Assembly (NCBI GenBank): GCA_963722825.1
Contig: CAVROI010000003.1
Span: 1,879,764-1,943,763 of the forward strand
Direction: 5' to 3'
Length of the DNA: 64,000 bases
Source of the DNA: an uncultured Gemmatimonadales bacterium
GTDB taxonomy: Bacteria > Gemmatimonadota > Gemmatimonadetes > Gemmatimonadales > GWC2-71-9
The position numbers were made by a program, and so were the translations under genes. Below are positions 29,269-50,554 of the stretch, piece by piece (the first letter of the stretch is position 1; every line of letters starts with the position of its first letter). Under the pieces are notes generated by a model. It worked only from the letters and a program-made list of their open reading frames with translations, was not told the origin of the DNA and did not search any database.

Positions 29269-29345
29269 GGTGATTCTCCTCGAGGGCCGAGAATGGCCAA
29301 GCCGCTCGGCCACCGCGAGCGGCGGAACGAGGCGACGAGCGGGTT

Positions 29346-31664: not shown

Positions 31665-32206
31665 ATGTGATCCAGACCGCCATCCCCGAGGTGATGGTGA
31701 TCGAGCCGGTGGTGCGGGAGGATGTGCGTGGCTTCTTCCTCGAGGTATGGCAGGAGCAACGCTACCGGTCGGCGGGCATTGATCTTCCCTTCGTGCAGGA
31801 CAATCACAGCAGATCCGGGTGTGGGACGCTGCGGGGCCTGCACTACCAGATCCGACATCCGCAGGGGAAGCTGGTGCGGGTCGCGGCGGGCGAAGTATTT
31901 GACGTGGCGGTGGATCTTCGCCGGTCTTCTCCCACCTTCGGCCGCTGGGTGGGGACCATCCTGTCGGGCGAGAATCACCGACAGGTCTGGGTCCCGCCCG
32001 GCTTCGCGCACGGCTTTTACGTGACGAGCGAGTGGGCCGATGTGCTGTACAAGGTCACCGACTTCTACGCCCCGGAGTACGACCGCACTCTGAGGTGGGA
32101 TGACTCCGAAGTGGGCGTCGAGTGGCCGCTGTCGGGCGGCAAGCCGGTGCTTTCCGCGAAGGATGCGGCAGGGCTTTCTCTCAGCGACGCGGACACCTAT
32201 CCGTGA
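31661..32206 (+). CDS. rfbC: dTDP-4-dehydrorhamnose 3,5-epimerase
   Basis: [34 protein letters not shown] and [12 protein letters not shown] are present. The GTG start overlaps the rfbA stop (GTGA). Confidence 0.92.
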
Positions 32207-33090
32207 CCTCTCCGCTGGTCCGCACGGCACTCATCACCGGCGCCGGCGGGCAGCTCGGCCTCGAGCTGCAGGCGACCGTGCCGAAGGGGTGGCGCGTGAT
32301 TCCGTGCGACCGCCGGATGCTCGATGTCTCGAACGAAGCGGACGTGCGATTTGTCTTCCAGCGCGAACGGCCAGGACTGGCCATCAACGCCGCCGCCTAT
32401 GCCGGCGTGGATGCCGCCGAGTCGGATGCCGACGGCGCCGCGGCGGTCAACGCGCGGGGCGCGGCGAATATTGCCGGGGCGGCGCGCGAGCACGGCACTC
32501 GGATCATTCACGTCTCCACCGACTTCGTTTTCGATGGGCGGCAGGGACGTCCCTACGCTCCGGACGCTGCGACGAACCCGCTTGGCGTGTACGGCCGGAC
32601 CAAGCTCGAGGGCGAGCGTGAGGTCGCGAACATTTGCGAAGGATCCGCCGTCGTGCTGCGCACGGCCTGGCTCTACTCGGTGCACGGCAGGAACTTCGTC
32701 CTGGCCATGCTGAGGCTCATGGCGGAGCAGGACTCGGTCGACGTCGTGAGCGATCAGGTGGGGACGCCGACTCGGGCTCAGGGGCTCGCCGAGGCGATAT
32801 GGGCGATCGCGGAGCGGCCGGGGATGCGCGGTGTCCATCATTGGACCGACGCAGGCGTCGCGAGCTGGTACGACTTTGCCGTCGCGATCCAGGAAGAGGC
32901 GCTCGCGCTCGGCCTGCTCGACCGCGCTGTGCCGGTTCGACCCGTTCGCACGGCGGATTATCCCCGGCCGGCGACCCGCCCTCCGTACAGCGTTCTCGAC
33001 AAGACCACGACATGGGCTGCACTCGGCCGAACTCCGCCGCACTGGCGGGTGAACCTCCGGCTGATGCTGCAGGCGTTGCGGCGTGGCTAG
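32203..33090 (+). CDS. rfbD: dTDP-4-dehydrorhamnose reductase
   Basis: [26 protein letters not shown], and [13 protein letters not shown] (YxxxK) are present. The GTG start overlaps the rfbC stop. Confidence 0.9.
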
Positions 33091-34198
33091 CCTGCTCGTC
33101 ACGGGCGGCGCCGGCTTCATCGGCGCCAATTTCGTGCATCACTGGGTACGGGCGCACCCGGCCGACAAGGTCGTGGTGCTCGACGCGCTGACGTACGCGG
33201 GGAATCTCGCGAGCCTCGAGCCGGTGAGGTCGCATCCCGGGTTCGAGTTTGTGCGGGGCGATATCCGGACACCGGGGCTGGCAGAGCGGCTGCTGCGGGA
33301 TCACGCGGTGACGTTGCTCGTTCACTTCGCCGCGGAGTCGCACGTGGACCGGTCGATCGTGGGACCCGACGCGTTCATCGAGACCAACGTGGCCGGTACC
33401 CACGAGCTGCTGAAGGCGGCGAGACGGGTGTGGCTGGAGGAGGGAACGGGAGGGGAGGGGAGGCGATTCCACCACGTCTCTACCGACGAAGTCTACGGGT
33501 CGCTCGGCCCCGAGGAGCCTGCGTTTTCCGAGGAGAGGCCATACGCGCCCAACTCCCCATACGCGGCAAGCAAAGCGGCCTCGGACCATCTGGTGCGCGC
33601 CTACCATCACACGTACGGGCTGCCGGTTACCACGAGCAACTGCTCGAACAACTACGGACCCTATCACTTCCCCGAGAAGCTGATTCCGCTGATGCTGGTG
33701 AACGCGCTCGAGGGCCGGCCGCTGCCGGTGTATGGTGACGGGCTCAACATTCGCGATTGGCTGTACGTCGAGGATCACTGCCGGGCGGTCGAGCTGGTGG
33801 CGACGAGAGGCAGACTGGGAGAGACGTACAACGTGGGCGGGCGAAACGAGTGGAGAAACATCGACATCGTGCGACTCCTCTGCCGCCTGGTGGACGAGGC
33901 GTTCGCCGCCCACGGAGAGCTGGCCGGGCGCTTTCCCTCGGCGCCTGCGGCCAAGGGTGAGAAGGCCGAGTCTCTTGTGAACTTCGTCACGGATCGGCCC
34001 GGCCACGACCGCCGGTATGCCATCGACGCGAGCAAGATCGAGCGGGAGCTGGGCTTCGTGCCGAGGGAGAGCTTCGAGAGCGGCATCCGGAAGACGATTG
34101 CCTGGTTTCTCGCCAACGAGCCCTGGTGGCGGGGTGTCATGGACGGGAGCTATCAGGAGTGGGTGAGAAGGCGGTATGGGGAGTTGAGGTCCACCTGA
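33083..34198 (+). CDS. rfbB: dTDP-glucose 4,6-dehydratase
   Basis: [33 protein letters not shown], and [14 protein letters not shown] are present, followed by [17 protein letters not shown]. Confidence 0.95.
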
Positions 34199-35377: not shown

Positions 35378-36640
35378 ATGACAACCGAGACGTCGCTCGA
35401 TGACGTGCTGGCGCCCGGAGGGCTAGACATCACGGCCCGACTTCGCGCGGCCACCGGTTCCCTCAACCGGTTCGCGTTGCGAGGCGCGCTCCGCCTTCTT
35501 GCCCCCCGCGTACCCGCCTCGATTCCTAGCGAGGGAGTCCGACGCATCCTGCTCTCCGGCAGCATGGGCATCGGTAACGCCGTGATGTTCGAGCCGACAT
35601 TGCGGGCGCTTCGAGATCGGTTTCCTGCCGCTCACCTCGCGGTCACGCTGGAGGCTGATGCTGCCAGCCGCGCGATCTTCGACTGGCCAGGATTGGTGGA
35701 TGAAGTGATCGTGGTCCGCGGGTCGTCCCGTCTGGCTCGTGCGATTGCCGGCCTGCGCCTCGCGCGGCAGGGATGGGATCTGTGCGCGATCCGCTTCAAC
35801 GGCGCGACGCACGACATCGTCATGGCCGCCATTTTCGGGCGCATACCGTACCGTGTGGGTCACGTGAGCAGCGGCCGGTTCAGCTCCGAGCTCGACTGGC
35901 TCTTCAACCTGCCGGTCGTCATGGGTGACTACGATCACGAAGTCGATCGGTACCTGGCCATGGTGGAGAAGCTCGGGCACGTGCCGTCTCGCCGTGCGCC
36001 GCGATTGGTGGTGGCCGACGAAGATCGGGCGGCGGCCCGGCGCCTGACCCAAGACCTCGGCCTGGCGCCGGATCGTCCCTGGGTGGCGATCCAGCCGGGG
36101 AGCAGTGCGCACCAGCATTGGAAGCGCTGGCCAACCGAGTACTGGCGAACACTGGCGAGCGAGCTGACTGCCGCGGGACTCGCCGTGCTCGGGCTCGGGT
36201 CCGCCGTCGAGCGGGACCTCCTCGCGGAGATCTGCCGCGGCGGGGGGGCGGTCAACCTGGCCGGCTCCTGCTCCCTCCGAGTAGCCGCGGCGGTCCTGGA
36301 GCGGAGTGAGCTCCTGGTCTCCACCGATAGCGCCTTGACGCACATCGCGGGAGCGGTCGGAACGCCGGTTATCGGCATCTTCGGGCCGACCGATCGGACC
36401 CGAACCAGGCCTTATGGCACGGGGCACACCCTGCTCGTGCCGGTCGACTGCCGAGGAAACCGGGAACCCTGTCTCGCTCCCAGCGGAGTACTGTCGCCCG
36501 ATTGCACATGGCGTGAGTGCATGCGGAGTATCCGGCCGGGAGAGGTCGTGGCCGCGGTGCGGCAGCGTTGCGCGGCGCCGGCTCATGGAGGCGCCGCTCG
36601 ATCGCCAGCCGGTCGTTCCACTCTCGGGGGGATGGCCTGA
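35378..36640 (+). CDS. Glycosyltransferase family 9 (ADP-heptose:acceptor heptosyltransferase-like)
   Basis: RILLSGSMGIGNAVMFEPTLRALRDRFP, VAIQPGSSAHQHWKRWPTEYW and LVSTDSALTHIAGAVGTPVIGIFGPTD are the characteristic GT9 segments. I chose the ATG at 35378 inside the longer track ORF. Confidence 0.8.
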   Translation: MTTETSLDDVLAPGGLDITARLRAATGSLNRFALRGALRLLAPRVPASIPSEGVRRILLSGSMGIGNAVMFEPTLRALRDRFPAAHLAVTLEADAASRAIFDWPGLVDEVIVVRGSSRLARAIAGLRLARQGWDLCAIRFNGATHDIVMAAIFGRIPYRVGHVSSGRFSSELDWLFNLPVVMGDYDHEVDRYLAMVEKLGHVPSRRAPRLVVADEDRAAARRLTQDLGLAPDRPWVAIQPGSSAHQHWKRWPTEYWRTLASELTAAGLAVLGLGSAVERDLLAEICRGGGAVNLAGSCSLRVAAAVLERSELLVSTDSALTHIAGAVGTPVIGIFGPTDRTRTRPYGTGHTLLVPVDCRGNREPCLAPSGVLSPDCTWRECMRSIRPGEVVAAVRQRCAAPAHGGAARSPAGRSTLGGMA

Positions 36641-36642
36641 CG

Positions 36643-37581
36643 ATGACTCGTGAGGCTCCGGAAGCCTCGATCAATGGGGCCCACCGGCACGCCGGCTGGG
36701 TCGCCCTCGGGTCCCGGGCGCTTGGTTGGGCAGGCCGCCAATTCCGGGCGATCCGATGGCGACAGCTGGAGCAAGGCGCTCCACGACTACTGACCGTCTC
36801 CACGGCGAACGGGCGCCTCACGGTCAACACCGGGTACCGCCTGATGGCCCAGCGGTTGTACGTGGGGCGAGAGTACGAGTCGCACTTGATCGATGCCGCC
36901 ATCAAGGAACTGCGCCGCCGTGGCATGGCACCACCTGACGGGACGGCGCTGGACATCGGCGCCAACATCGGCGTCATCGGAATCGCGCTGGTCCTTCGTG
37001 GATACGCGGCGCGGGTCATCGCCGTCGAGCCCGAGGCGGCCAATTTCGAGCTGCTACTGCGCAATGTCGGGCAGAACGGCTTGACCCAGGCGATCCGCTG
37101 CGAGCGAGTGGCGTTGGGCACGGTGGAGGGATCCGTCCAGCTGGAGCTCTCCCCCGACAACTGGGGAGACCACCGCGTCCGGGGGCCTCTGGGCCCGGCA
37201 CCCGGTGCATACGGTGAGAGCTCGCGAGCGACGGTCACGGTTCCGGCTGCGACGCTGGATGGCTTGCTCGAGCGCGTGTGCCCAGCCGGGGAACGCCCGT
37301 CGCTCATCTGGATGGACGTTCAGGGGTTTGAGGGGCGCGTCCTGGCGGGCGGAACCCGCACCATTCAGGCAGGTGTGCCGGTGGTCGCAGAGTTCTGGCC
37401 GTACGGCATCCGCCGAAGCGGGATGGACCGGGACCAGTTCTGCGGGATCCTCGAATCGCTCTTCACCACCTTCGTGCTGCTCGGTGACGCGCCCACTACG
37501 CGGGACATCCGGGAGTTACGGCGGATGTTCGACGAGCTCGTGATCAGCACGCGACACCGCAACGTGTTGCTCCTGCCGTGA
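36643..37581 (+). CDS. FkbM-family SAM-dependent methyltransferase
   Basis: ALDIGANIGVIGIALV, VIAVEPEAANFELLLRNV and IWMDVQGFEGRVLAG follow the FkbM pattern. The ATG lies 3 nt after the GT9 stop. Confidence 0.8.
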   Translation: MTREAPEASINGAHRHAGWVALGSRALGWAGRQFRAIRWRQLEQGAPRLLTVSTANGRLTVNTGYRLMAQRLYVGREYESHLIDAAIKELRRRGMAPPDGTALDIGANIGVIGIALVLRGYAARVIAVEPEAANFELLLRNVGQNGLTQAIRCERVALGTVEGSVQLELSPDNWGDHRVRGPLGPAPGAYGESSRATVTVPAATLDGLLERVCPAGERPSLIWMDVQGFEGRVLAGGTRTIQAGVPVVAEFWPYGIRRSGMDRDQFCGILESLFTTFVLLGDAPTTRDIRELRRMFDELVISTRHRNVLLLP

Positions 37582-40901: not shown

Positions 40902-41972
40902 TTGGCAGTTCAGCGAACCCTGACCATCGATGGCGTGGAGATATCCGAGGCGAGCGACTGCTACGTCATCGCCGAGATCGGCCACAACCATCAGGGCCAG
41001 ATCGAGAAGTGCAAGGAGCTCTTCCGTGTGGCCAAGGAATGCGGGGTCGACGCGGTGAAGCTGCAGAAGAGGGACAACCGGTCGCTCTTCACGCGCGCGA
41101 TGTACGACAAGCCCTACGACAACGAGAACAGTTTCGGCGCCACGTACGGTGAGCACCGGGAGGCGCTCGAGTTCGGCCGCGACGAATACCTGGAGCTTCG
41201 GGCCTATGCCCGGGACCTCGGCGTCACCTTCTTCGCGACCGTGTTCGACGTCCCGAGCGCCGACTTCCTGGCCCGACTGGACATGCCGGCGTACAAGATC
41301 GCCTCGGGCGATCTCAAGAGCACGCCGCTGCTCCGCCACGTCGCCGCGTTCGGCAAGCCGATGATCGTGAGTACCGGCGGTGCGACCATGGATGATGTCG
41401 CCCGCGCCTACGATGCAATCGTTCCGATCAATCCGCAACTCTGCTTTCTCCAGTGCACCGCGGCGTACCCGGCGTCGCCCGAAGACCTGAATCTCAAGGT
41501 CATCTCGACCCTGCGAGCCAAGTATCCTGATCTGGTCATCGGGCTGTCAGACCACGAGAACGGCATCGCCATGGCGGTGGCCGCCTACGTGCTCGGGGCG
41601 CGAATCGTCGAAAAGCATTTCACGCTCAACCACACCTGGAAAGGCACCGACCATCCGTTCTCACTGGAGCCAATCGGGATGCGGAAGCTGGTGCGCGACC
41701 TGCGCCGCACCCGCGAGGCGCTCGGGAACGGGATCAAGTGCCCGCTTCCGACCGAGCGGGGTCCGCTAGTGAAGATGGGCAAGAAGCTGGTGGCGGCTCG
41801 CGCCCTCGGCGTCGGACACGTCCTGACCTCCGATGACGTGGCCGTGAAATCGCCGGGTGACGGACTGCCCCCATATCTCATCGATCAGGTACTGGGCCGA
41901 ACACTCACGAAGCCGCTCCAGCCCGACGATTCGATCACCTTCGAGATGCTGGCCCAGGGCGAGGGGGAATGA
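40902..41972 (+). CDS. Sialic-acid-synthase-family PEP-condensing enzyme with a C-terminal SAF domain, NANS (sugar-phosphate) type
   Basis: VIAEIGHNHQGQIEKCKELFRVAKECGVDAVKLQKR, FGATYGEHREALEF, CFLQCTAAYPASPEDLNLKVIS, GLSDHENGIAMAVAAYVLGARIVEKHFTL and TWKGTDHPFSLEP are present. The start is TTG, with GGAGGGA upstream. Confidence 0.85.
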   Translation: MAVQRTLTIDGVEISEASDCYVIAEIGHNHQGQIEKCKELFRVAKECGVDAVKLQKRDNRSLFTRAMYDKPYDNENSFGATYGEHREALEFGRDEYLELRAYARDLGVTFFATVFDVPSADFLARLDMPAYKIASGDLKSTPLLRHVAAFGKPMIVSTGGATMDDVARAYDAIVPINPQLCFLQCTAAYPASPEDLNLKVISTLRAKYPDLVIGLSDHENGIAMAVAAYVLGARIVEKHFTLNHTWKGTDHPFSLEPIGMRKLVRDLRRTREALGNGIKCPLPTERGPLVKMGKKLVAARALGVGHVLTSDDVAVKSPGDGLPPYLIDQVLGRTLTKPLQPDDSITFEMLAQGEGE

Positions 41973-42769
41973 CCCGTCCGCTGGACGGGCGCATCGGGGT
42001 CGTGACCGGCGCGCTCGGGCGGTTGGGACCGGTCTGGTGTGCGGCGCTGCTGGACGCAGGCGCAAAGGTTTACGCGCTTGATCTTCCGGGCGCGACATCC
42101 TCAGCGCCATTCACCGACCTTCAGCGACGCGCGGGAGAGCGACTCGTCTCTCTTCCGGCCGATGTGCTCGATCGGGCTTCCCTCGTGGCGGCGCTCGAGC
42201 GGTGCGAGCGGGATGGCGGAACCCCTGCCGTGCTCGTGAACAATGCCGGCATCGATCAGCCGCCGGGGCCCGCCACGACCTACAGGATCGAGGACGTTCC
42301 GCTCGACCTGTTCCGAGGGACGGTGGACGTGAACCTGGCCGGCGCCTTTCAGGCCGCGCAGGTTTTCGGCGCCGCCATGGTTCGCGCAGGACGCGGCTCG
42401 ATCGTAAACATCGGGTCCCTCTACGCCTCGGTCTCGCCCGACGCCCGGTTCTACGATCATCTCCCGACCGACCCTCCCTTTCTCAAGCCCCCCGCCTACG
42501 GCGCCTCGAAGGCCGCCCTCGTCAATCTGACCCGGTACCTCGCGACCCATTGGGGGCCGAGCGGTGTCAGGGTCAACGCCCTTTCTCCGGGCGGCGTCGA
42601 GGGAGGACAGGATCCGGAGTTCAAGCGTAAGTTCGTTGCCCGCGTGCCCTTGGGTCGGATGGCCGGCCCCCAGGACCTGGGAGGAGCGCTTATATTCCTC
42701 GCGTCCGATGCCTCCTCGTATGTCACCGGCGTCGAATTGCGGGTCGACGGCGGGTTCACTTCCTGGTGA
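41969..42769 (+). CDS. SDR-family oxidoreductase
   Basis: The glycine motif is VTGALGRLG. NNAG and the catalytic YGASKAA are present. The start overlaps the synthase stop (ATGA). Confidence 0.8.
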   Translation: MTRPLDGRIGVVTGALGRLGPVWCAALLDAGAKVYALDLPGATSSAPFTDLQRRAGERLVSLPADVLDRASLVAALERCERDGGTPAVLVNNAGIDQPPGPATTYRIEDVPLDLFRGTVDVNLAGAFQAAQVFGAAMVRAGRGSIVNIGSLYASVSPDARFYDHLPTDPPFLKPPAYGASKAALVNLTRYLATHWGPSGVRVNALSPGGVEGGQDPEFKRKFVARVPLGRMAGPQDLGGALIFLASDASSYVTGVELRVDGGFTSW

Positions 42770-42794: not shown

Positions 42795-44267
42795 ATGGTG
42801 GATCTGAATCTTCCCCCGATAATTCTCAATGTCGTGAACGGTCGTGAAGTGGGCGCGCTCGCCGGGGAGCAGTTCGAGAAGCGCGCTCCCGCGACCGGTC
42901 GCACGCTCGTCCAAGTAGCCCGCTCGCGCATTGCCGACGTCCAGGGCGCGGTGGCCGCCGCACGCTGCGCCCAGCCTGCATGGGCCGACGCCACCGTGAC
43001 GAGCCGTGGGGACGTGCTACGTGCCATCGCGCTCGCGCTCAACGAGCGCCGGGATGAGGTAGCGCAACTCGTGGCCCTCGAGACCGGCAAGTCCCTCAAA
43101 GATGCCCGGGGGGAGACGACCGCCGCCGTCGAGATGGGAATGTTCGTGGCCGGCGAAGGGCGGCGGTTCTACGGCCGGACGACTACCAGCGCCGTGCCCA
43201 ACAAGACGGCTCTCACCGTCCGCCAGCCCATTGGAGTGGCGGGACTCATCATCGCCGCCAATACGCCCATCGCCAACGTGGCCTGGAAGGTCTTTCCGGC
43301 GCTGCTCTGCGGGAATGCCGCGGTGCTCAAGGCGTCGGAGGACACGCCGCTGAGCGCCTGGGCGTTCGCGCGTCTCGCGGCCGACGCCGGCCTGCCGCCC
43401 GGTGTGCTCAATGTCATTCACGGATTCGGCGAAGAAGCCGGGGCCCCACTCGTGGAGTCCCCCGACGTGGATCTGATCAGCTTCACCGGCTCCGCGGCGG
43501 TGGGCCGGTACATTGGCAGGACGGCGGGCGAGCGGCTCGCCAAGGTCTGCCTCGAGCTTGGCGGCAAGAACCCGCTCATCGTCTGTGACGATGCCGACCT
43601 CGACCGGGCGGTGGAGTCCGCGGTGCTGTCGGCCTTCAGCAACGCCGGACAGCGCTGCGCGGCCGGCAGCCGTCTCATCGTCTTCGACGCGGTGTACGAG
43701 CGTTTCCGCGAGCGCCTGCTGGCGCGCGTGTCGCGCCTGCGGGTGGGCTGCTCGGACGACGATGACTTCGGCCCGGTAATCAACGAAGCGCAGCTCGACG
43801 GTATGTGCGCCGCCATCGAGACGGCGCGGAGAGCCGGCATTCGAGTCATCGCCGGTGGCCGCCGCGTGACCGGGGCCGGGTACGATGGCGGGTATTTCCT
43901 CGAGCCGACCCTCCTCGAAGACGCGGCGCCCGACGCCGACGTCTCTCGCACCGAGCTGTTCGGCCCTATTTCCGTCCTCTATCGAGTGTCCGACTTCGAC
44001 GCGGCCCTGCGGCTGGCGCACGATTCTCCCTACGGGCTCACCGCCTCGATCCACACCGCCAGCATCCACCGGGCGATGACGTTCCTGAACCGCATCCGGT
44101 CGGGAGTAGCGGTCGTCAACGGCGCAACCTACGGTAGCGAGCCTCACCTCCCGTTCGGCGGGCTGGGCGATTCCGGCACCGGTTGGCGCGAGGCTGGGAC
44201 CGAGGCGCTCGACGTCTATTCCGAGTGGAAGACGGTGTACCTCAACCACGATCCGCGTGCCGTCTGA
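42795..44267 (+). CDS. NAD(P)-dependent aldehyde dehydrogenase
   Basis: VCLELGGKNP carries the catalytic Glu. NAGQRCAAGSRL carries the catalytic Cys. FTGSAAVGR and EPHLPFGG are also present. I chose the ATG at 42795 inside the longer track ORF. Confidence 0.88.
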   Translation: MVDLNLPPIILNVVNGREVGALAGEQFEKRAPATGRTLVQVARSRIADVQGAVAAARCAQPAWADATVTSRGDVLRAIALALNERRDEVAQLVALETGKSLKDARGETTAAVEMGMFVAGEGRRFYGRTTTSAVPNKTALTVRQPIGVAGLIIAANTPIANVAWKVFPALLCGNAAVLKASEDTPLSAWAFARLAADAGLPPGVLNVIHGFGEEAGAPLVESPDVDLISFTGSAAVGRYIGRTAGERLAKVCLELGGKNPLIVCDDADLDRAVESAVLSAFSNAGQRCAAGSRLIVFDAVYERFRERLLARVSRLRVGCSDDDDFGPVINEAQLDGMCAAIETARRAGIRVIAGGRRVTGAGYDGGYFLEPTLLEDAAPDADVSRTELFGPISVLYRVSDFDAALRLAHDSPYGLTASIHTASIHRAMTFLNRIRSGVAVVNGATYGSEPHLPFGGLGDSGTGWREAGTEALDVYSEWKTVYLNHDPRAV

Positions 44268-45048
44268 CCGGCCGGAGGTTCCGGCCTGCGTTGCGCTGAT
44301 TCCGGCCCGGTCAGGATCGAAGCGGGTGCCGGGCAAGAATGTCCGCCCGCTGGCCGGGCACCCGCTCATGGCGTATACCATCGCCGCGGCCGTCGAGAGC
44401 AGGGTGTTCGCCGCCGTGATCGTCTCCACCGACTCGGCGGAGATCGCGGACATCGCGCGCCATTACGGAGCCGAGACGCCCTTCCTGCGTCCGGCGGCCA
44501 TGGCCGCCGATCTCTCGCCCGATATCGAGTGGGTCCGCTACACGCTCGACACGCTGCGGCAGATGGGTCGCGCCTGGGAGAGCTTCAGCATCCTGCGGCC
44601 CACGAGCCCCTTTCGCCAAGCCGACACCATTCGCCGCGCCTGGCGTGAGTTCACGGCCGCGGAGGCGATCGATTCGCTGCGCGCCGTCGAGCTCTGCCGG
44701 CAGCACCCGGGGAAGATGTGGGTCCTGGAGGCCGGCCGGATCGTCCCGCTGCTCCGGGATGGGCCGACGTCTCCACCCTGGCACAGCATGCCGTATCAGG
44801 GCCTTCCCACGGTGTACATTCAAAATGCAAGCCTGGAGATCGCCTGGTCCCGCACGGTTCGGGAGAAGGGCTCGATCGCGGGAACGGTCATTCATCCGTT
44901 TCTCACCGAAGGCTACGAGGGGTTCGACGTGAACGATTCGAGAGACTGGTCGTACGCGGAGCTTCTCCTCGAGGAGGGCAAGGCTACGCTGCCGCACGTC
45001 GGCGTCGAGGCCTGGCGCCCTTCGGCCGCGGGCGTGGACGCTCCATGA
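44257..45048 (+). CDS. CMP-sugar (acylneuraminate/ulosonate) cytidylyltransferase
   Basis: ALIPARSGSKRVPGKNVRPLAGHPLMAYTI is the CTP_transf_3 N-terminal signature. VSTDS and ILRPTSPFR are also present. Confidence 0.85.
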   Translation: MPSDRPEVPACVALIPARSGSKRVPGKNVRPLAGHPLMAYTIAAAVESRVFAAVIVSTDSAEIADIARHYGAETPFLRPAAMAADLSPDIEWVRYTLDTLRQMGRAWESFSILRPTSPFRQADTIRRAWREFTAAEAIDSLRAVELCRQHPGKMWVLEAGRIVPLLRDGPTSPPWHSMPYQGLPTVYIQNASLEIAWSRTVREKGSIAGTVIHPFLTEGYEGFDVNDSRDWSYAELLLEEGKATLPHVGVEAWRPSAAGVDAP

Positions 45049-46961
45049 GCACGCTTCGCTTTGTTCCGCTGAAAGAGCTCGAACGCGCGCGGACGCTCTC
45101 CGGCGACGCGGCCATCCGTGTCGCGCTCTTCTCCGCCCTCTGCCGCATCAACACGTTGTACATGATCGCGCGCGCCGGCTCCGGCCACATCGGGAGCAGC
45201 TTCAGCAGCCTCGACATCGTGGCCTGGCTGCACCTTCAAGAGATGCGACAGGGGCCGGCCACGCACGACCGGTTCTTTTCCTCGAAGGGCCATGATGTCC
45301 CCGGCCTGTACGCCGTGCTGATCGGGCTGGGGCGCTTGCCGTTCGAGAGCATCCACACGCTTCGCCGGCTCGGCGGGCTCCCCGGTCATCCCGACGTCGC
45401 CACTCCCGGAATGGTCACCAACACCGGGCCACTCGGCATGGGAGTATCCAAGGCGAAGGGAATGGTGCGAGCCAACCGTCTCGCGGGCCGGGACAGCCGG
45501 ATCTTCGTCATGACGGGCGACGGGGAGCTTCAGGAAGGCCAGTTCTGGGAGTCGCTCGCGTCGGCAGCCCACGCCCGGATGAGCGAGATCACGGTGATCG
45601 TGGACCACAACAAGGTCCAGTCGGACACGCTTGTTTCGTCGGTGAGTGATCTCGGGAATCTGGCCGCCAAATTCGAGGCGTTCGGCTGGCATTGCGTCCG
45701 TTGCGACGGGCATGACTTGGCCGCGCTGGGTGCTACCTTCGACCGGCTGCGGCGGGTGGCCGACCGACCGAAGATCATCCTCGCGGATACGATCAAGGGG
45801 CGTGGCGTCTCGTTCATGCAGCACACGGCACTGGAGCCCGGCGAGAAATTCTACCGGTTTCACAGTGGCGCTCCCGACGACCCCACGTACGAGCGGGCCG
45901 CCGCCGAGCTGATCGCCTCGGCCAACCAGATGCTCGCGCGTGCTGGCGCTGCGCCGCTGAATCTCGAGGAGAGCCCGCGACCGCCACGACCGGGCATTCA
46001 AGGCGCTCAGCGACTGATCCCGGCCTACTCCCGGGCCCTCGTCGCGCACGCGGAGCACAACCCGCGGCTCGTGGCTCTCGATGCCGACCTGCTGCTGGAC
46101 ACCGGACTGATCCCGTTCTCCGAGCGCTTTCCCGACCGATTCATCGAGTGCGGCATCGCCGAGCAGGACATGGTCTCCCAGGCGGGTGGACTCGCCCTCA
46201 GCGGGTATCTACCGGTCGTGCACTCGTTCGCCTGCTTCCTGTCCACTCGCGCGAACGAGCAGATCTACAACAACGCGACCGAGCGCAGGAAGATCGTGTA
46301 CGTGGGCTCGCTGGCCGGGCTACTTCCCGGCGGGCCGGGTCACTCGCACCAATCGGTTCGCGACGTGGCGGCGCTGGGGGGGACCCCGGGCCTCGAGATG
46401 ATCGAGCCATCGTGCGAGGACGAAGTCACCCAGGCCGTGGCGTACGCTCTGGATCCCACCGGGCCGAGCGCGTATCTCCGACTGGTGTCCATCCCGTGCC
46501 AGGTGCCGTTCAGGTTGCCCGCGGGTTATCGACTCGAGCGGGGGAGGGGTGTCGCTCTTACGCCGGGAGACGACGCGGTGATGTTCGCCTACGGTCCCGT
46601 GATGTTGTCGGAGGCATGGAAGGCGGCGGCGCTGCTGCGGGAGCGCAAGGATATCGGACTCCGGATCGTGAACCTGCCCTGGCTCAACCTCGTAGATGAC
46701 GACTGGCTCGAGGAAGCGCTGTCGGGTATCAATCTCGTCTTTGCCCTCGACGATCATTATGTCGAGGGAGGGCAGGGGCAGATGCTGGCGAGCCGGATTG
46801 CCGAGCTCGGTCTGACCGACTCGATGACCGTGAGGCGATTCGGTGTTCGCGATATTCCCGCCTGCGGCCAGAATGACGAAGTACTTCGGGCGCATCGTCT
46901 CGACGCCGAAAGTCTGGCGGAAGACGTGGCCGCGGTTCTCACCGCCGGTCCGGCCGCCTGA
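45045..46961 (+). CDS. Single-chain transketolase-family ThDP enzyme (N- and C-terminal halves fused, about 638 aa)
   Basis: GSGHIGSSFSSLDIV is present. The ThDP/Mg motif is TGDGELQEGQFWES...IVDHNKVQSD. The pyrimidine-binding half contains FIECGIAEQDMVSQAGGLA and PGHSHQS. ATGA overlaps the cytidylyltransferase stop. Confidence 0.85.
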   Translation: MSTLRFVPLKELERARTLSGDAAIRVALFSALCRINTLYMIARAGSGHIGSSFSSLDIVAWLHLQEMRQGPATHDRFFSSKGHDVPGLYAVLIGLGRLPFESIHTLRRLGGLPGHPDVATPGMVTNTGPLGMGVSKAKGMVRANRLAGRDSRIFVMTGDGELQEGQFWESLASAAHARMSEITVIVDHNKVQSDTLVSSVSDLGNLAAKFEAFGWHCVRCDGHDLAALGATFDRLRRVADRPKIILADTIKGRGVSFMQHTALEPGEKFYRFHSGAPDDPTYERAAAELIASANQMLARAGAAPLNLEESPRPPRPGIQGAQRLIPAYSRALVAHAEHNPRLVALDADLLLDTGLIPFSERFPDRFIECGIAEQDMVSQAGGLALSGYLPVVHSFACFLSTRANEQIYNNATERRKIVYVGSLAGLLPGGPGHSHQSVRDVAALGGTPGLEMIEPSCEDEVTQAVAYALDPTGPSAYLRLVSIPCQVPFRLPAGYRLERGRGVALTPGDDAVMFAYGPVMLSEAWKAAALLRERKDIGLRIVNLPWLNLVDDDWLEEALSGINLVFALDDHYVEGGQGQMLASRIAELGLTDSMTVRRFGVRDIPACGQNDEVLRAHRLDAESLAEDVAAVLTAGPAA

Positions 46962-47659
46962 TGCTGGTCTTCTGGGACATCGACGGCACCTTGCTGACCA
47001 CCGGGCGCGCGGGAATCTTCGCGTGGGAGGAGGCTTTGAGTGAGGTCGCCGGAATCGATGCCGATCTCGAGACGTTCGATACCGCCGGCATTCCGGACTT
47101 CGGCATCGCGCGGCGACTGCTCGGTGAATATGCCGGCGAGGCCGATCCCACCGCCGATGCGGTCCGGCGCCTCGTCACGGCCTACGAGGACCGCCTTCCT
47201 GCCGCTCTCTCGCGCCGGCAGGGACGGGTCCTTCCCAATGTGCGTGAGATCCTGGTGGCGCTGACGACTGAGCCTGGAGCGCACTCGATGCTCCTCACGG
47301 GAAACACCCGCCGAGGGGCGGATGCAAAACTCCGCCACTACCGACTGGCGGAGTTCTTCCACGAAGGTGCTTTCTCGGAGGGCGACCTCGACCGGGAAGC
47401 CATCGCCGGCGTCGCTCTCGAGCGCGCCACATCGGCAGGCTATGGCGCTGACATCTCTCGCATCTTCGTGGTCGGTGATACGCCGCACGACGTACGGTGC
47501 GGCCGGTCGATCGGAGTGAGAACCGTCGCCGTGGCGACCGGCGGATACGACGAGGCCGCCCTGGCCGCCTCCGGTGCGTGGAAGGTGCTGCCGGAGCTGC
47601 CGCCGGCCGGAGAGTTCCTCGCGCTGCTCTCGGGCCGTGAGGTCTCGGCCGATGCCTGA
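46961..47659 (+). CDS. HAD-superfamily phosphatase (capped, subfamily IA-like)
   Basis: Motif I is FWDIDGTLL. LLTGNTR and the motif IV region VVGDTPHDVRCG are present. The start overlaps the transketolase stop by 1 nt (TGATG). Confidence 0.8.
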   Translation: MLVFWDIDGTLLTTGRAGIFAWEEALSEVAGIDADLETFDTAGIPDFGIARRLLGEYAGEADPTADAVRRLVTAYEDRLPAALSRRQGRVLPNVREILVALTTEPGAHSMLLTGNTRRGADAKLRHYRLAEFFHEGAFSEGDLDREAIAGVALERATSAGYGADISRIFVVGDTPHDVRCGRSIGVRTVAVATGGYDEAALAASGAWKVLPELPPAGEFLALLSGREVSADA

Positions 47660-49091
47660 CGCCACCGTGCTCGCGTCGGCACCGTTCCCGCTCGCGCTCC
47701 GCAACTTCGTGCCGACCGGCCTGGCGTCCGAGCTCGAGGCACGCTTCGGGGTGCGGGTTCGGTTCGTATCGCCCTATGCCCAGCCCGAGTTTACCGATGG
47801 AGCCGGCCACTCGTTCCTCAACTTCGCGGTCGCGGCTTCCGCCGGGGCCAACGGCGTGCCCGCACTCGCTGGAGTCACCGCGCTCGATCGAGCATTGAAG
47901 AGCATCCATCTCACCGGCTTCGCGATGGAATATCCCGACGGCAGCCTCCAGAATCTCGAGCTCAGCCGCCGTCACTCGGCCCAGAACCAGGTCGCGCGCA
48001 TCCTCGCCATGCTGGCGCCGCGCGCCTCCGGACGCAGGCAATGGCTCAGGCGGGTTGCGGCCCTGTATCGTCCCGCCCGCCGACAGATTCAGGATGCCTT
48101 CGATCGGACGAATCCGGCGATGGTGCTCGTCGCCTCTCCCGGGCACTACTGGCTCGACCACTTTGTCCTTGACGAGGCCGCGCGCCGGCGGATTCCCAGC
48201 GTGTGCGTCGTCCTCAGCTGGGACAATCTCTACTCGCGCGGCCCGATGTGCCGCCGGCCGGACCATCTCCTTGTCTGGAGCGAGGAGATGCGGCGACAGG
48301 CGATGACGATCCACCAGTATCCGGAGAACCGGATCGGAGTGGTCGGCCCGCTCCAGTTCCGGTTCTACGCCGAGCCACCGACAGCGGAGGAGCTCGGCGC
48401 GATGCGCCGGCGGATCGGTCTCGGCCCGGCGGAGCCGTTTATCGCCTATGTGTGCGGCGTACGCACCGCGCGGTACGACGTCGAAGACGTGACCGCCATG
48501 CTCGATGCGCTCGCCCACGGCCCATACCGTGATTTCAAGGTGGTCGTTCGCCCTCATCCCCAGGGATCCCGCGAGGCATACGAGGCACTCAGAACCCGCG
48601 GAGTGCTGCTCGACCCGTCTCCGGATCTGACGCATGAGGAAGCCCAGCCCGAGGCGCTCGACACCGAGGCCATCCGCCACATGGCGAGTCTCCTCGACGG
48701 CGCCCACTTCGTGGTGAGTAGCTGGGGGACCACCGCGCTGCTCGAGGCCTGCATCTTCGACACGCCCAGCGTACAGCTTCGCTGGATGGACGCTCTGCCA
48801 CACAGCGTGCCGGAGGAAGTCCAGCTCGTCCGGGATTTCCAGCGATACATCCACATGCGGGCGTTCGACGCCACCGGCGCCCGACCCTACTGCGATCGGC
48901 CCGAGACGCTCAATGCGATTCTGGCCGATCTCGAATCTCGAGCCGACGAATTCTCCCGGAGACGGGCGGAGGCCGTCGGGCTCCTGGCTCACTTGCCGCT
49001 GGGCGACGTGGTCCAGCGAGTCTGCGAGAGACTCCGCCCCGTGCTCCCCCAGGCGACCGTACGGCCGCCGCTCGTGCAGGTGGCCCGATGA
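47652..49091 (+). CDS. Uncharacterised GT-B-like protein with an HP motif, a candidate CMP-ulosonate glycosyltransferase
   Basis: A soluble-looking 479-aa protein. VCVVLSWDNLYSRG, LLVWSEEMRRQ, and KVVVRPHPQGS are present (H302-P303, nt 48555-48560). Its organisation resembles sialyl/beta-Kdo/TagF-like transferases. The family assignment is inference. Confidence 0.45.
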   Translation: MPDATVLASAPFPLALRNFVPTGLASELEARFGVRVRFVSPYAQPEFTDGAGHSFLNFAVAASAGANGVPALAGVTALDRALKSIHLTGFAMEYPDGSLQNLELSRRHSAQNQVARILAMLAPRASGRRQWLRRVAALYRPARRQIQDAFDRTNPAMVLVASPGHYWLDHFVLDEAARRRIPSVCVVLSWDNLYSRGPMCRRPDHLLVWSEEMRRQAMTIHQYPENRIGVVGPLQFRFYAEPPTAEELGAMRRRIGLGPAEPFIAYVCGVRTARYDVEDVTAMLDALAHGPYRDFKVVVRPHPQGSREAYEALRTRGVLLDPSPDLTHEEAQPEALDTEAIRHMASLLDGAHFVVSSWGTTALLEACIFDTPSVQLRWMDALPHSVPEEVQLVRDFQRYIHMRAFDATGARPYCDRPETLNAILADLESRADEFSRRRAEAVGLLAHLPLGDVVQRVCERLRPVLPQATVRPPLVQVAR

Positions 49092-50554
49092 CTTTCTTTC
49101 TGGTGAGCGTGATAGGCTATACCGCGCTGGTCGCCTGGCTCGCCGATCGGGTCCAGGCGACTCCGGCGGAATGGGCCTTCACTCTTGGGCACCTGGTCCT
49201 CGCGGCAGCCCTCAACGCCTACCTTCTCCGTGTGGCGCGGTTGCGATCGCTCAGCCTGCTCGGTTCCGCGCCGCTCGTGTTTCTGCTCGTCTCGCAGATC
49301 TACTTCACCGTCAACGGCCTCAAGTACTTCTCACCGATCCTGCTCTTCCCTCAGTTCGAGCTCAGCCTGGGGGCGCAATTCCTCGGGTCGGTGGCCGGGG
49401 GAGTGGTGCTGTTCCTGTGCGCGAGCCTGCTGCTCTGGCAGCGAGGACCGACCTCGGAGCGGATGCTGGACTGGCTCAAGGTCAACCGTGCGGACCTCCG
49501 CCGACTCATGGTGGTCACCTCACTCGGCTCGCTCGGCTCGAAGGCTCTCCTGATTTGGCTGGGATACGGCTCCGCGTACACCGACACCGCCTACAACGAG
49601 GCCGCGGTGCGCAGCTACGGAGACTTCTTCATTCTCCTCGCCAACGACACCTTTGGCCTCCTGTCGATGTATCTCGGGCTGGTATTCCTCCTCCGGCCGC
49701 GCGGCCGGGACCGCTACCGGCCGCTCTCGGTGATGATCGCGCTGGCGGCCTTCATGGCGCATTTCCTTTATGCCCTCGTGTACCTTCGGGCGAGAATGAT
49801 TCTTCTGGTGGCCTTCGTGATGTTCGCTGCCGCCTCGGAAGTCCGGTCGCGGAAGCTGGCTGAACGCGCGCTCAAGACCATGTTCGTCTCCCTGCCCGCC
49901 CTATCGATGCTTGGGGTTCAGCTCACGCTTCTCCTGGGGCGAGTGAACCTTCCGGAAGACACCAGTACGCGATTGGCGATCGCAGCCGTGAACCGGCGGG
50001 CCGACCTCACGGATTTCGCGACGGCCATCGTCGTAAATTCGGGCGGGCAGGCCCACGATGCAGGAATCATCACGTCGGCAATTCTGAACGCCGTGCCGCG
50101 CGTGCTCCTGCCGGACAAGGAAGCGCTCGTCAAGGATGTCTACTCGGACGTCCTGGGCAAGTATCTCGGGTGGCCCGCCTACGTCGATCACCAGATCGTC
50201 GAGGACTATCAGGATTCGGCGTTCAGCGCAGGGGTGATGTCGCTGGGGATACCCGGTTTCGTGCTGGTGCCCATGGGGCTGATCCTGCTCTTCTACGCCG
50301 TCTCCCGCTGGCTGGAGCGTAAGGTGAGCGGGCCCGCCTACGGGCTGGCGATGATGGCGCTCTGGCTTTCCGCCCTGCGGGTCGAGATAGAGTGGGCCAA
50401 CATTCCTTTCAGTTTTCGTCAGGCGCTGATGATCGGGTTGGCGAGTTGGATCCTGCTGGCAACCATCCGCTCGCTCCACGGGGCGCTGGTCGTCGCTGCG
50501 GGGCCACGGCGACCGCTGATCGGGGCGGCACTTCCACGCGACGCCGAGGCCTGA
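49088..50554 (+). CDS. Polytopic membrane protein, probable O-antigen/EPS polymerase (Wzy-like)
   Basis: More than 10 hydrophobic segments and a large loop. It sits in a Wzx-containing cluster and its ATGA overlaps the upstream gene. Wzy families are too divergent for a motif call. Confidence 0.55.
   Translation: MTFFLVSVIGYTALVAWLADRVQATPAEWAFTLGHLVLAAALNAYLLRVARLRSLSLLGSAPLVFLLVSQIYFTVNGLKYFSPILLFPQFELSLGAQFLGSVAGGVVLFLCASLLLWQRGPTSERMLDWLKVNRADLRRLMVVTSLGSLGSKALLIWLGYGSAYTDTAYNEAAVRSYGDFFILLANDTFGLLSMYLGLVFLLRPRGRDRYRPLSVMIALAAFMAHFLYALVYLRARMILLVAFVMFAAASEVRSRKLAERALKTMFVSLPALSMLGVQLTLLLGRVNLPEDTSTRLAIAAVNRRADLTDFATAIVVNSGGQAHDAGIITSAILNAVPRVLLPDKEALVKDVYSDVLGKYLGWPAYVDHQIVEDYQDSAFSAGVMSLGIPGFVLVPMGLILLFYAVSRWLERKVSGPAYGLAMMALWLSALRVEIEWANIPFSFRQALMIGLASWILLATIRSLHGALVVAAGPRRPLIGAALPRDAEA

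What the first reader, a model, noticed from the sequence alone, without database searches (positions are those of the whole stretch)
45045..46961. Fused transketolase-family ThDP enzyme embedded in, and translationally coupled within, a glycan-biosynthesis operon
Seen in sequence: a 638-aa protein joins the ThDP-binding half (GSGHIGSSFSSLDIV; TGDGELQEGQFWES...DHNKVQSD) to the pyrimidine-binding half (ECGIAEQDMVSQAGGLA). It is shorter than housekeeping TktA and lies between a cytidylyltransferase (ATGA overlap) and a HAD phosphatase (1-nt overlap). A two-carbon ketol transfer is not part of any textbook nucleotide-sugar route for ulosonic acids. The enzyme could therefore define the chain length or branching of the precursor sugar.
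Basis: partly seen in the sequence, partly recalled or inferred. Interest (0 to 1): 0.55.

Follow-up and report, generated by a model that had tools for sequence, protein, structure and literature searches.

The report
Remodelled transketolase in ulosonic-acid sugar cassette
The gene is real: it is a third, specialised transketolase-family enzyme that has lost the usual sugar-phosphate pocket and belongs to a widespread, undescribed gene cassette that probably makes a new, shortened, doubly acidic sialic-acid-like surface sugar.

Summary
Bases 45045-46961(+) encode a 638-aa protein with all three transketolase domains. It overlaps the cytidylyltransferase gene by ATGA and the HAD gene by one base.

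It is neither the housekeeping transketolase nor DXS. The genome also holds two canonical transketolases and a true DXS.

The protein belongs to a distinct, monophyletic transketolase clade:
- The cofactor and catalytic residues are kept (E. coli numbering H26, H66, H100, H261, E411, H473, D155, N185).
- All four sugar-phosphate ligands are replaced (R358 to I/V, S385 to D, H461 to L, R520 to S).
- The stereo-determining D469 is replaced by P.

The gene sits in a cassette, NeuB-type synthase, SDR, ALDH, CMP-transferase, TK, plus one of two mutually exclusive phosphatases. The cassette recurs in many phyla but is patchy within them (5 of 201 genomes in the window's own order).

My best reading (about 0.5, inferred) is tail trimming:
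1. A Kdn-like nonulosonate is made by the 9-phosphate route.
2. The SDR oxidises C8.
3. The TK removes C8-C9.
4. The ALDH oxidises C7, giving a CMP-activated 3-deoxy-heptulosaric acid.

AlphaFold unexpectedly predicts a DXS-type domain arrangement. I found no paper on the cassette. This scan has already met the same cassette on other DNA.

The parts
40902..41972 (+). NeuB-family PEP-condensing ulosonate synthase with a SAF domain
   Evidence: PF03102 at 260.8 bits plus SAF. TIGR03569 scores 285 bits, below its cut-off. The nearest solved structures are SpsE, PseI and NeuB. Its stop overlaps the SDR start by 4 nt.
41969..42769 (+). Short-chain dehydrogenase of the polyol/sugar-acid type; proposed to oxidise C8-OH
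   Evidence: adh_short_C2 at 151.8 bits. The nearest solved and curated relatives are polyol, galactitol and gluconate-5 dehydrogenases and mannonate oxidoreductase. Present in 47 of 51 well-flanked loci.
42795..44267 (+). Aldehyde dehydrogenase; proposed to oxidise the C7 aldehyde
   Evidence: PF00171 at 498.6 bits. The best curated matches are alpha-ketoglutaric semialdehyde and 2,5-dioxovalerate dehydrogenases, all below cut-off. The likely start is the in-frame ATG at 42795, 25 nt after the SDR stop; the mechanical ORF starts at 42564. Present in 42 of 51 loci.
44257..45048 (+). CMP-ulosonate synthetase (cytidylyltransferase)
   Evidence: PF02348 at 71.8 bits. PseF model at 135 bits, below cut-off. 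The nearest solved structures are NeuA and CMP-NeuAc synthetases. ATGA overlap with the TK gene. Present in 48 of 51 loci.
45045..46961 (+). The finding: a 638-aa transketolase-family ThDP enzyme of the remodelled x-D-L-P-H-x clade
46961..47659 (+). HAD-IA type phosphatase (proposed ulosonate-phosphate phosphatase)
   Evidence: HAD, HAD_2 and Hydrolase_like families. One-base overlap with the TK stop. Mutually exclusive with a KdsC-type phosphatase in related loci: 25 versus 26 loci, never both.
47652..49091 (+). TagF/Glyphos_transf-like soluble protein; candidate transferase for the CMP-sugar
   Evidence: No Pfam hit at 1e-3. The nearest Atlas clusters carry PF04464. Homologues lie directly downstream of the TK gene in L067, L075, L082 and L048.
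49088..50554 (+). Polytopic membrane protein, probably Wzy-type polymerase or ligase
   Evidence: Nine hydrophobic segments and no Pfam hit. Conserved after the cassette in Gemmatimonadales loci L004-L008.

Best explanation
The protein is a ThDP-dependent enzyme of the transketolase superfamily. It has been recruited into a pathway for a CMP-activated, modified ulosonic acid that is built into a Wzx/Wzy-type surface polysaccharide.

Proposed route (only the gene content and residue patterns are shown; the chemistry is inferred):
1. The NeuB-type synthase condenses PEP with a hexose 6-phosphate, most simply mannose-6-P, to give a nonulosonate 9-phosphate (Kdn-9-P-like).
2. The HAD phosphatase removes the phosphate.
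3. The polyol-type SDR oxidises the penultimate C8 hydroxyl. This creates a terminal ketol (C9H2OH-C8=O-C7HOH).
4. The transketolase-like enzyme cleaves C7-C8. It carries off C8-C9 as dihydroxyethyl-ThDP, which is passed to an unknown aldehyde or released as glycolaldehyde. A C7 aldehyde is left on the pyranose ring.
5. The ALDH oxidises that aldehyde irreversibly to a carboxylate. The product is a 3-deoxy-hept-2-ulosaric acid, which would have the L-arabino configuration if the precursor is Kdn.
6. The cytidylyltransferase activates the sugar, either before or after trimming. A TagF-like transferase probably installs it.
For: Shown here:
- The cofactor and catalytic residues are invariant in 78 cassette TKs: H26, H66, H100, D155, N185, E411 and H473 in E. 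coli numbering (P0001 H48, H83, H115, D159, N189, E373, H435). The H261 equivalent is H273 by profile alignment.
- The phosphate ligands are replaced across the whole clade: R358 to I/V, S385 to D, H461 to L, R520 to S. D469 is replaced by P. Three independent alignments agree.
- The clade is monophyletic (55 tips, support 0.93). It lies apart from the canonical short TKs and from TktA plus the genome's own paralogues.
- The cassette is conserved. Of 51 well-flanked loci from many phyla, 48 have the CMP-transferase, 47 NeuB, 47 the SDR and 42 the ALDH. Diverged TKs (34-49% identity) still sit with NeuB, the CMP-transferase and the SDR.
- Two unrelated phosphatase types replace each other: 26 loci, 25 loci, 0 with both. 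Among the well-flanked loci the split is 20, 14, 0, one-sided Fisher p = 2e-4, though the loci are not independent. A phosphatase step therefore belongs to the pathway, and the TK should meet a dephosphorylated sugar.
- The SDR's nearest relatives oxidise the penultimate carbinol of polyols and sugar acids.
- The ALDH's best curated matches act on omega-aldehydes of 2-keto-3-deoxy acids.
- No aminotransferase, epimerase, kinase or isomerase for precursor making lies in the cassette.

Inferred from established stereochemistry:
- Read from C9, 8-keto-Kdn or 8-keto-Neu5Ac has the 3S,4R (D-threo) configuration that transketolase donors require.
- The position that D469 normally hydrogen-bonds is the ring oxygen (C6) in such a substrate, which would explain the loss of D469.

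Precedents:
- S385, D469 and R520 are the positions changed in an engineered E. coli TK triple variant (PDB 5HHT, listed).
- The sulfoquinovose sulfo-TK pathway is a precedent for chain trimming by a transketolase (PMC9594981, PMC11659671).
Against: - No biochemical data exist for any member, and no substrate or product is known.
- About 9 of 51 well-flanked loci have no ALDH nearby and no obvious replacement. The triad is therefore not obligatory.
- No clade-specific Arg or Lys that could hold a carboxylate was identified.
- The acceptor for the two-carbon unit is unknown. The site apparently cannot hold phosphosugar acceptors.
- The NeuB substrate is not established.
- Donor type (ketol or pyruvate) cannot be read from the sequence. 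AlphaFold gives a DXS-type domain arrangement.
- The tail-trimming idea reached me through earlier notes of this scan. It is not independent support.
Confidence: 0.5

Rival explanations
1. Precursor supply. The enzyme makes or shortens the aldose (phosphate) that the NeuB-type synthase then condenses with PEP, and so sets the chain length before condensation.
For: Transketolases release aldoses that are two carbons shorter. The gene is operonic with the synthase.
Against: All four phosphate ligands and D469 are replaced throughout the clade, yet the pathway keeps a phosphatase, so the synthase substrate is phosphorylated. The cassette holds no isomerase to turn a ketose product into an aldose. 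This reading gives the SDR and the ALDH no role.
Confidence: 0.12
2. Carboligase acting in the building direction. The enzyme uses pyruvate (as DXS does) or hydroxypyruvate as donor and adds a two-carbon unit to an aldehyde on the sugar. The SDR then reduces the new ketone, for example to build a 9-deoxy or an extended tail.
For: The AlphaFold model superposes as a whole on DXS: rmsd 2.3-2.8 A over 505-554 residues, Z 38-39. It does not superpose on TK (rmsd about 20 A). A canonical short TK run through the same pipeline gives the TK arrangement. Some loci have TK and SDR without an ALDH.
Against: Sequence places the enzyme with the TKs: 212 bits to human TKT over the full length, against 114 bits to DXS over part of it, and 155 bits on the dxs model against a cut-off of 466. 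The DXS equivalents of D427 and of the GAP-binding Arg are not kept (E. coli Dxs reads SGRDHR at the six positions, this protein IDLPHS). This reading offers no source for the sugar aldehyde and no role for the ALDH found in 42 of 51 loci.
Confidence: 0.13
3. 2-Keto-acid decarboxylase. The enzyme decarboxylates the ulosonic acid (or a tail 2-keto acid) to an aldehyde, and the ALDH oxidises that aldehyde.
For: ThDP decarboxylase plus ALDH pairs are common. The ALDH also scores on phosphonoacetaldehyde and semialdehyde dehydrogenase models.
Against: Loss of C1 would destroy the anomeric 2-keto acid that the conserved CMP-transferase needs (48 of 51 loci). The TK-type histidines that hold the donor hydroxymethyl group are all kept. 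A tail keto acid would need extra oxidation steps for which no gene is present.
Confidence: 0.05
4. An ordinary pentose-phosphate transketolase (or DXS) that merely happens to lie in the polysaccharide locus.
For: It has the three TK Pfam domains, and public sources name its homologues 'transketolase'.
Against: The genome has two canonical TKs and a true DXS. The protein scores below every curated equivalog cut-off. The phosphate site is lost. Distribution is patchy: 5 of 201 genomes in the own order and 3 of 301 in Rhizobiaceae. Linkage to NeuB and the CMP-transferase holds across phyla.
Confidence: 0.02

Closest known systems
Short (human-type) and split transketolases, EC 2.2.1.1 (human TKT 3MOS/4KXU; split TK of Carboxydothermus 6YAK/6YAJ)
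   Same: The best sequence match is human TKT at 212 bits and 28% identity over the full length. The halves superpose on the split TK at 1.9 and 2.1 A. The three domains, the GDG...N motif, E411 and the catalytic histidines are all shared.
   Different: R358, S385, H461 and R520 are replaced by I, D, L and S, and D469 by P. An eight-residue insert precedes the H261 equivalent. It is a separate clade. It scores below the equivalog cut-offs. The predicted domain arrangement is not TK-like.
1-Deoxy-D-xylulose-5-phosphate synthase (DXS)
   Same: The predicted whole-chain domain arrangement matches DXS (Z 38-39, rmsd 2.3-2.8 A). Both are ThDP enzymes of the same superfamily.
   Different: Sequence similarity is weaker and partial. 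DXS is an outgroup on a long branch. The genome has its own DXS. The arrangement is only an AlphaFold monomer prediction.
Kdn / sialic acid 9-phosphate route (Bacteroides thetaiotaomicron and Prymnesium Kdn pathway; animal NANS-NANP-CMAS; PMC6200933)
   Same: A NeuB-family synthase, a phosphatase (KdsC-type in half of the loci, scoring on the Kdn-9-P phosphatase model) and a CMP-ulosonate synthetase.
   Different: The known routes have no SDR, transketolase or ALDH. The substrate of this synthase is not known.
Sulfoquinovose sulfo-transketolase pathway (SqwGH) (PMC9594981, PMC11659671)
   Same: A transketolase is recruited to cut two-carbon units off a non-standard sugar, working together with redox enzymes.
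   Different: That pathway is catabolic and acts on a sulfosugar ketose. Here the setting is biosynthetic, and the proposed substrate is the side chain of an ulosonic acid.
[quoted passage not shown]
   Same: It is the same class of sugar as the predicted product, a seven-carbon 3-deoxy-ulosaric di-acid.
   Different: Trimming Kdn would give the L-arabino isomer, not the D-lyxo isomer (inference). The cassette TK was found in only 3 of 301 Rhizobiaceae genomes searched, so it does not explain Dha there.

Membership tests
Transketolase (EC 2.2.1.1) | Three-domain architecture: PP-binding, Pyr-binding and C-terminal domains | tested here: met
   PF00456, PF02779 and PF02780 all score above their cut-offs.
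Transketolase (EC 2.2.1.1) | ThDP/metal motif (GDG...N), cofactor-activating Glu and the catalytic histidines (H26, H66, H100, H261, H473 of E. coli) | tested here: met
   These are invariant in 78 cassette TKs. The H261 equivalent is H273 by hhalign.
Transketolase (EC 2.2.1.1) | Sugar-phosphate binding residues R358, S385, H461 and R520 | tested here: not met
   They are I, D, L and S in this protein and throughout the clade.
Transketolase (EC 2.2.1.1) | D469, which reads the C2-OH of the acceptor or the C4-OH of the donor | tested here: not met
   Replaced by Pro (Ala in a few members).
Transketolase (EC 2.2.1.1) | Score above a curated equivalog cut-off | tested here: not met
   NF004559 scores 363.7 against 488. 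TIGR00232 scores 139 against 682.
Transketolase (EC 2.2.1.1) | Active site formed between the PP domain of one chain and the Pyr domain of the other chain | tested here: inconclusive
   The AlphaFold monomer model has the DXS-type arrangement, while the control TK has the TK type. No multimer model or experiment is available.
DXS (1-deoxy-D-xylulose-5-phosphate synthase) | Score above the TIGR00204 cut-off, and being the genome's MEP-pathway enzyme | tested here: not met
   It scores 155 bits against a cut-off of 466. A separate gene scores 759 bits.
DXS (1-deoxy-D-xylulose-5-phosphate synthase) | Same-chain PP/Pyr domain arrangement | tested here: inconclusive
   Met in the AlphaFold model only.
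9-phosphate route to CMP-nonulosonic acids (Kdn/Neu5Ac type) | A NeuB-family synthase, an ulosonate-phosphate phosphatase and a CMP-synthetase encoded together | tested here: met
   Searches identify the three genes. The two phosphatase types replace each other across loci.
9-phosphate route to CMP-nonulosonic acids (Kdn/Neu5Ac type) | The synthase uses mannose-6-P or ManNAc-6-P | not testable with these tools
   This needs an enzyme assay. Only the absence of precursor genes was seen.

The most novel reading that the evidence does not exclude
A new functional class inside the transketolase superfamily. It would be a natural transketolase for non-phosphorylated substrates, possibly with DXS-type chain connectivity. 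It would cut the glycerol tail off a sialic-acid/Kdn-type sugar so that, after oxidation, bacteria from more than a dozen phyla display a previously undescribed seven-carbon di-acid (a 3-deoxy-heptulosaric acid) on their surface.
Probability: 0.4. Interest if true: 0.8.

Novelty: new variant of a known kind. Interest (0 to 1): 0.63.

Why it matters
- No known route to sialic, Kdn, Kdo, pseudaminic or legionaminic acids uses a ThDP enzyme. If the reading holds, this cassette adds a new step type, side-chain cleavage by a transketolase, and probably a new acidic sugar to bacterial glycobiology.
- The cassette occurs in Gemmatimonadota, Cyanobacteria, Chloroflexota, Acidobacteriota, Planctomycetota, Proteobacteria, candidate phyla radiation (CPR) lineages and others.
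- It would also supply a natural transketolase whose pocket differs at the very positions that enzyme engineers mutate (S385, D469, R520) to accept non-phosphorylated substrates.
- It gives a test case for how TK-type and DXS-type chain connectivities interconvert.
- Annotation pipelines currently call these genes simply 'transketolase', which misleads metabolic reconstructions.

Tried and rejected
Contexts came from the search for related loci instead.
- Literature searches gave no paper on the cassette. I tried transketolase with nonulosonic or ulosonic acid, NeuB, cytidylyltransferase and ALDH. The library is limited to open-access papers and bioRxiv.
- I tested a link to Dha in Rhizobiaceae LPS. 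Only 3 of 301 Rhizobiaceae genomes searched carry the TK, so I dropped the link.
- I looked for an enzyme that replaces the ALDH in ALDH-less loci (L026, L032, L036, L068, L082). I found only glycosyltransferases, FkbM methyltransferases, a sulfotransferase, a TagF-like protein and unknowns.
- I looked for clade-specific basic residues that could bind a carboxylate. The invariant Arg and Lys residues (K81, R107, K251, R402, R479) appear, by eye against the human TKT alignment, to be shared with human-type TKs.
- My first extraction of paralogue L001 took a wrong-frame ORF. I corrected this.
- Residue-level placement in the 3D model was not possible, because the tools return no coordinates.
- A housekeeping TK and a DXS identity were both rejected.
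Full report
**1. Observation**

Pfam finds Transketolase_N, Transket_pyr and Transketolase_C in order, all above their cut-offs.

The start ATG overlaps the stop of the upstream PF02348 cytidylyltransferase gene (ATGA). The stop TGA shares one base with the start of the downstream HAD hydrolase gene (TGATG).

The whole cassette is tightly packed:
- The NeuB stop overlaps the SDR start by 4 nt.
- The ALDH most likely starts at the in-frame ATG at 42795, 25 nt after the SDR stop.
- The ALDH and cytidylyltransferase genes overlap by 11 nt.

**2. Not a housekeeping enzyme**

The assembly is 4.54 Mb and 96.7% complete. It holds two further transketolase genes that score 469 and 409 bits on PF00456, against 116 for this one. 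It also holds a true DXS, at 759 bits against a cut-off of 466.

The present protein scores below every curated equivalog cut-off: 363.7 of 488 for the best transketolase model and 155 of 466 for dxs.

The gene is accessory. With this protein as query at E <= 1e-100:
- 5 of 201 genomes of the own order match, all in the own genus.
- 3 of 301 genomes of the Rhizobiaceae match.

Yet close homologues (55-67% identity) occur in many groups: Myxococcota, Chloroflexota, Cyanobacteria (Moorena), Methylococcales, Acidobacteriota, Planctomycetota, Chlorobium, Desulfobacterota, Saccharibacteria and Parcubacteria. That pattern is typical of a horizontally mobile glycan-diversity module.

**3. The active site**

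I mapped the residues in three independent ways:
- phmmer against human TKT, the best solved relative at 212 bits over the full length;
- an L-INS-i alignment with E. coli TktA, fetched from NC_000913, extended to 78 cassette proteins and 69 library representatives;
- a profile-profile alignment against canonical short transketolases.

All three agree.

Kept and invariant, in E. coli numbering: H26, H66, H100, D155, N185, E411 and H473. The H261 equivalent is H273, in an invariant Y-x-F/Y-H-S-G-A-P motif that follows an eight-residue insert.

Replaced throughout the clade:

| E. coli residue | Role | In this clade |
|---|---|---|
| R358 | phosphate ligand | I/V |
| S385 | phosphate ligand | D (invariant) |
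| H461 | phosphate ligand | L |
| R520 | phosphate ligand | S (or N/T) |
| D469 | reads the hydroxyl next to the reacting carbon | P |

The two paralogues of the same genome have the canonical R-S-H-D-H-R pattern.

In a tree rooted on E. coli Dxs, the 55 sequences with the x-D-L-P-H-x pattern form one clade (support 0.93). This clade is sister to a small x-S-Y-D-H-R group (joint support 0.998). It lies apart from the canonical short TKs and from TktA plus the two paralogues.

The chemistry-bearing machinery of a transketolase is therefore intact. What has gone is the part that recognises a sugar phosphate. S385, D469 and R520 are also the three positions changed in an engineered E. coli TK variant (PDB 5HHT, listed). 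From my own knowledge, that variant was made to accept non-phosphorylated substrates.

**4. The company it keeps**

I searched 80 genome loci with the window's own proteins. The order NeuB, SDR, ALDH, cytidylyltransferase, TK recurs on one strand.

Among the 51 loci with at least 6 kb upstream and 3 kb downstream of the TK gene:

| Partner | Loci with it |
|---|---|
| Cytidylyltransferase | 48 |
| NeuB | 47 |
| SDR | 47 |
| ALDH | 42 |

Other points on context:
- Eighty metagenome loci, retrieved with diverged clade members, show the same pattern. TKs only 34-49% identical to this one still sit with NeuB, the cytidylyltransferase and the SDR. Canonical-looking TKs at about 32% identity sit alone.
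- The four well-flanked loci that lack NeuB nearby still have a NeuB gene elsewhere in the genome. In Moorena it lies about 18 kb away.
- Predicted fusion proteins exist: cytidylyltransferase-TK, SDR-TK and TK-FkbM methyltransferase.

A phosphatase is part of the module but comes in two unrelated forms:
- the HAD-IA type after the TK gene, as in this window (25 loci);
- a KdsC-type gene between NeuB and the SDR (26 loci), which scores on the KdsC and Kdn-9-P phosphatase models.

No locus has both. In the well-flanked subset the counts are 14, 20 and 0, one-sided Fisher p = 2e-4, though related loci are not independent. This non-orthologous displacement argues that the synthase product is a phosphate ester that is then dephosphorylated, as in the Kdn, Neu5Ac and Kdo routes.

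No aminotransferase, 2-epimerase, kinase or isomerase accompanies the cassette, either here or in a diverged example. The synthase probably takes a common sugar phosphate.

**5. Mechanism**

The most economical reading uses each of the three extra enzymes once, in a chemically necessary order.

The SDR's nearest solved and curated relatives are polyol, galactitol, sorbitol and gluconate-5 dehydrogenases and mannonate oxidoreductase. These enzymes oxidise a secondary, often penultimate, carbinol of a sugar or sugar acid. Oxidation of C8 of a nonulosonic acid would create the HOCH2-CO-CHOH ketol that defines a transketolase donor.

Cleavage by the TK would then leave a C7 aldehyde on the ring. 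The ALDH would oxidise that aldehyde. Its best curated matches are alpha-ketoglutaric semialdehyde and 2,5-dioxovalerate dehydrogenases, that is, omega-aldehydes of 2-keto-3-deoxy acids. All these matches are below cut-off and only a little better than other ALDH models.

Two pieces of established stereochemistry fit this (inference):
- Read from C9, 8-keto-Kdn or 8-keto-Neu5Ac has OH-7 and O-6 in the 3S,4R (D-threo) relation that transketolase donors need.
- The donor C4 hydroxyl that D469 normally binds is the ring oxygen in such a substrate. That makes the loss of D469 understandable.

Loss of the phosphate site fits a substrate that has already passed the phosphatase. Starting from Kdn, the product would be 3-deoxy-L-arabino-hept-2-ulosaric acid. 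The cytidylyltransferase would activate it. The TagF/PF04464-like protein encoded just after the HAD gene probably transfers it. A similar gene follows the TK directly in L067, L075 and L082.

I give this specific scheme about 0.5. I give the broader statement, a dedicated enzyme acting on a non-phosphorylated intermediate of a CMP-ulosonic acid pathway, about 0.85.

Weak points:
- No biochemistry exists for any member.
- 9 of the 51 well-flanked loci lack an ALDH nearby and show no replacement.
- The acceptor for the two-carbon unit is unknown.
- I found no new carboxylate-binding residue.

The tail-trimming idea came to me from earlier notes of this scan. Before reading them I favoured a precursor role. 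I then tested the predictions that could be tested here.

**6. An unexpected structural prediction**

AlphaFold2, given a 44-sequence clade alignment, produced a model with pLDDT 94.5 and pTM 0.93.

- Each half of the model matches the split transketolase closely: residues 17-299 on 6YAK at 1.9 A and residues 321-637 on 6YAJ at 2.1 A.
- The chain as a whole superposes on DXS: Z 38-39, rmsd 2.3-2.8 A over 505-554 residues, Foldseek TM 0.78-0.88.
- It does not superpose on transketolases as a whole: rmsd about 20 A, TM 0.46.

As a control I ran a canonical short TK (P0234, 9-sequence alignment) through the same pipeline. It gave the transketolase arrangement, with TM 0.86-0.88 to human TKT and 0.47-0.53 to DXS.

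In DXS the PP and Pyr domains of one chain form the active site. In TK they come from different chains. The prediction may be real, or it may be a monomer-mode artefact, since the linker is about as long as in human TKT. It needs a dimer model or a structure. It also keeps open a DXS-like carboligase reading, which I rate at 0.13.

**7. Context in the window**

The cassette lies in a roughly 33-kb Wzx/Wzy-type polysaccharide locus. In order, the locus contains:
- rmlA, rmlD and rmlB-like genes, a GT9 glycosyltransferase, an FkbM methyltransferase, the Wzx flippase and two methyltransferases;
- the cassette;
- the TagF-like protein, a nine-segment membrane protein, a methyltransferase, two GT2 glycosyltransferases, an epimerase and a WecA-type initiating transferase;
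- a GNVR chain-length protein, a PglF/WbpM-type dehydratase and a Wza-like exporter.

**8. Novelty**

I found no paper describing the cassette in the library available. Known comparators are:
- the Kdn and sialic acid 9-phosphate routes (PMC6200933);
- chain trimming by a transketolase in sulfoquinovose catabolism (PMC9594981, PMC11659671);
- heptulosaric acid (Dha) in plant RG-II and Rhizobiaceae LPS (reference 105 of PMC5713287).

I class the finding as a new variant of a known kind. This scan has already reported the same cassette in other genomes. The present window adds another member. It also adds these tests: the mutual exclusion of the two phosphatases, the clade tree with its residue signature, the stereochemical argument and the DXS-type model with its control.

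Noticed in passing
model of window:45045-46961: AlphaFold predicts DXS-type rather than TK-type domain connectivity for this clade. A canonical short TK used as a control gives the TK type. This may be real or a monomer-mode artefact.
   Followed up: partly
P0124 (library representative): One clade member (631 aa, 51% identical) has R at H26, Q at E411 and Q at H473. It looks like a catalytically dead transketolase-like protein.
   Followed up: no
P0219, P0221, P0243, P0252, P0263: The sister clade has W in place of H26 and Y in place of H461, but keeps D469 and mostly R520. It is another non-canonical transketolase group of unknown role.
   Followed up: no
L021:9923-14378: In a Methylococcales genome the cassette-type TK gene stands alone next to fliD (flagellar cap). 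This hints at use in flagellin glycosylation. NeuB lies elsewhere in that genome.
   Followed up: partly
P0122; L032:12113-13108; L068:12699-13646; window 36517-37581: FkbM-type methyltransferases recur beside the TK, and one is fused to it (900-aa protein). The sugar is probably O-methylated in many carriers.
   Followed up: no
window 28132-29313 (-): An isocitrate-lyase/PEP-mutase family gene lies just upstream of the polysaccharide locus. I did not examine whether it is a phosphonate-pathway PEP mutase.
   Followed up: no
L068:13668-14801: A sulfotransferase gene lies two genes after the TK and cytidylyltransferase in a Gemmatales locus.
   Followed up: no
window 30750-34198 (+): An rmlA/rmlD/rmlB-type dTDP-rhamnose gene set lies upstream in the same strand run, so the glycan probably also contains a 6-deoxyhexose.
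   Followed up: no
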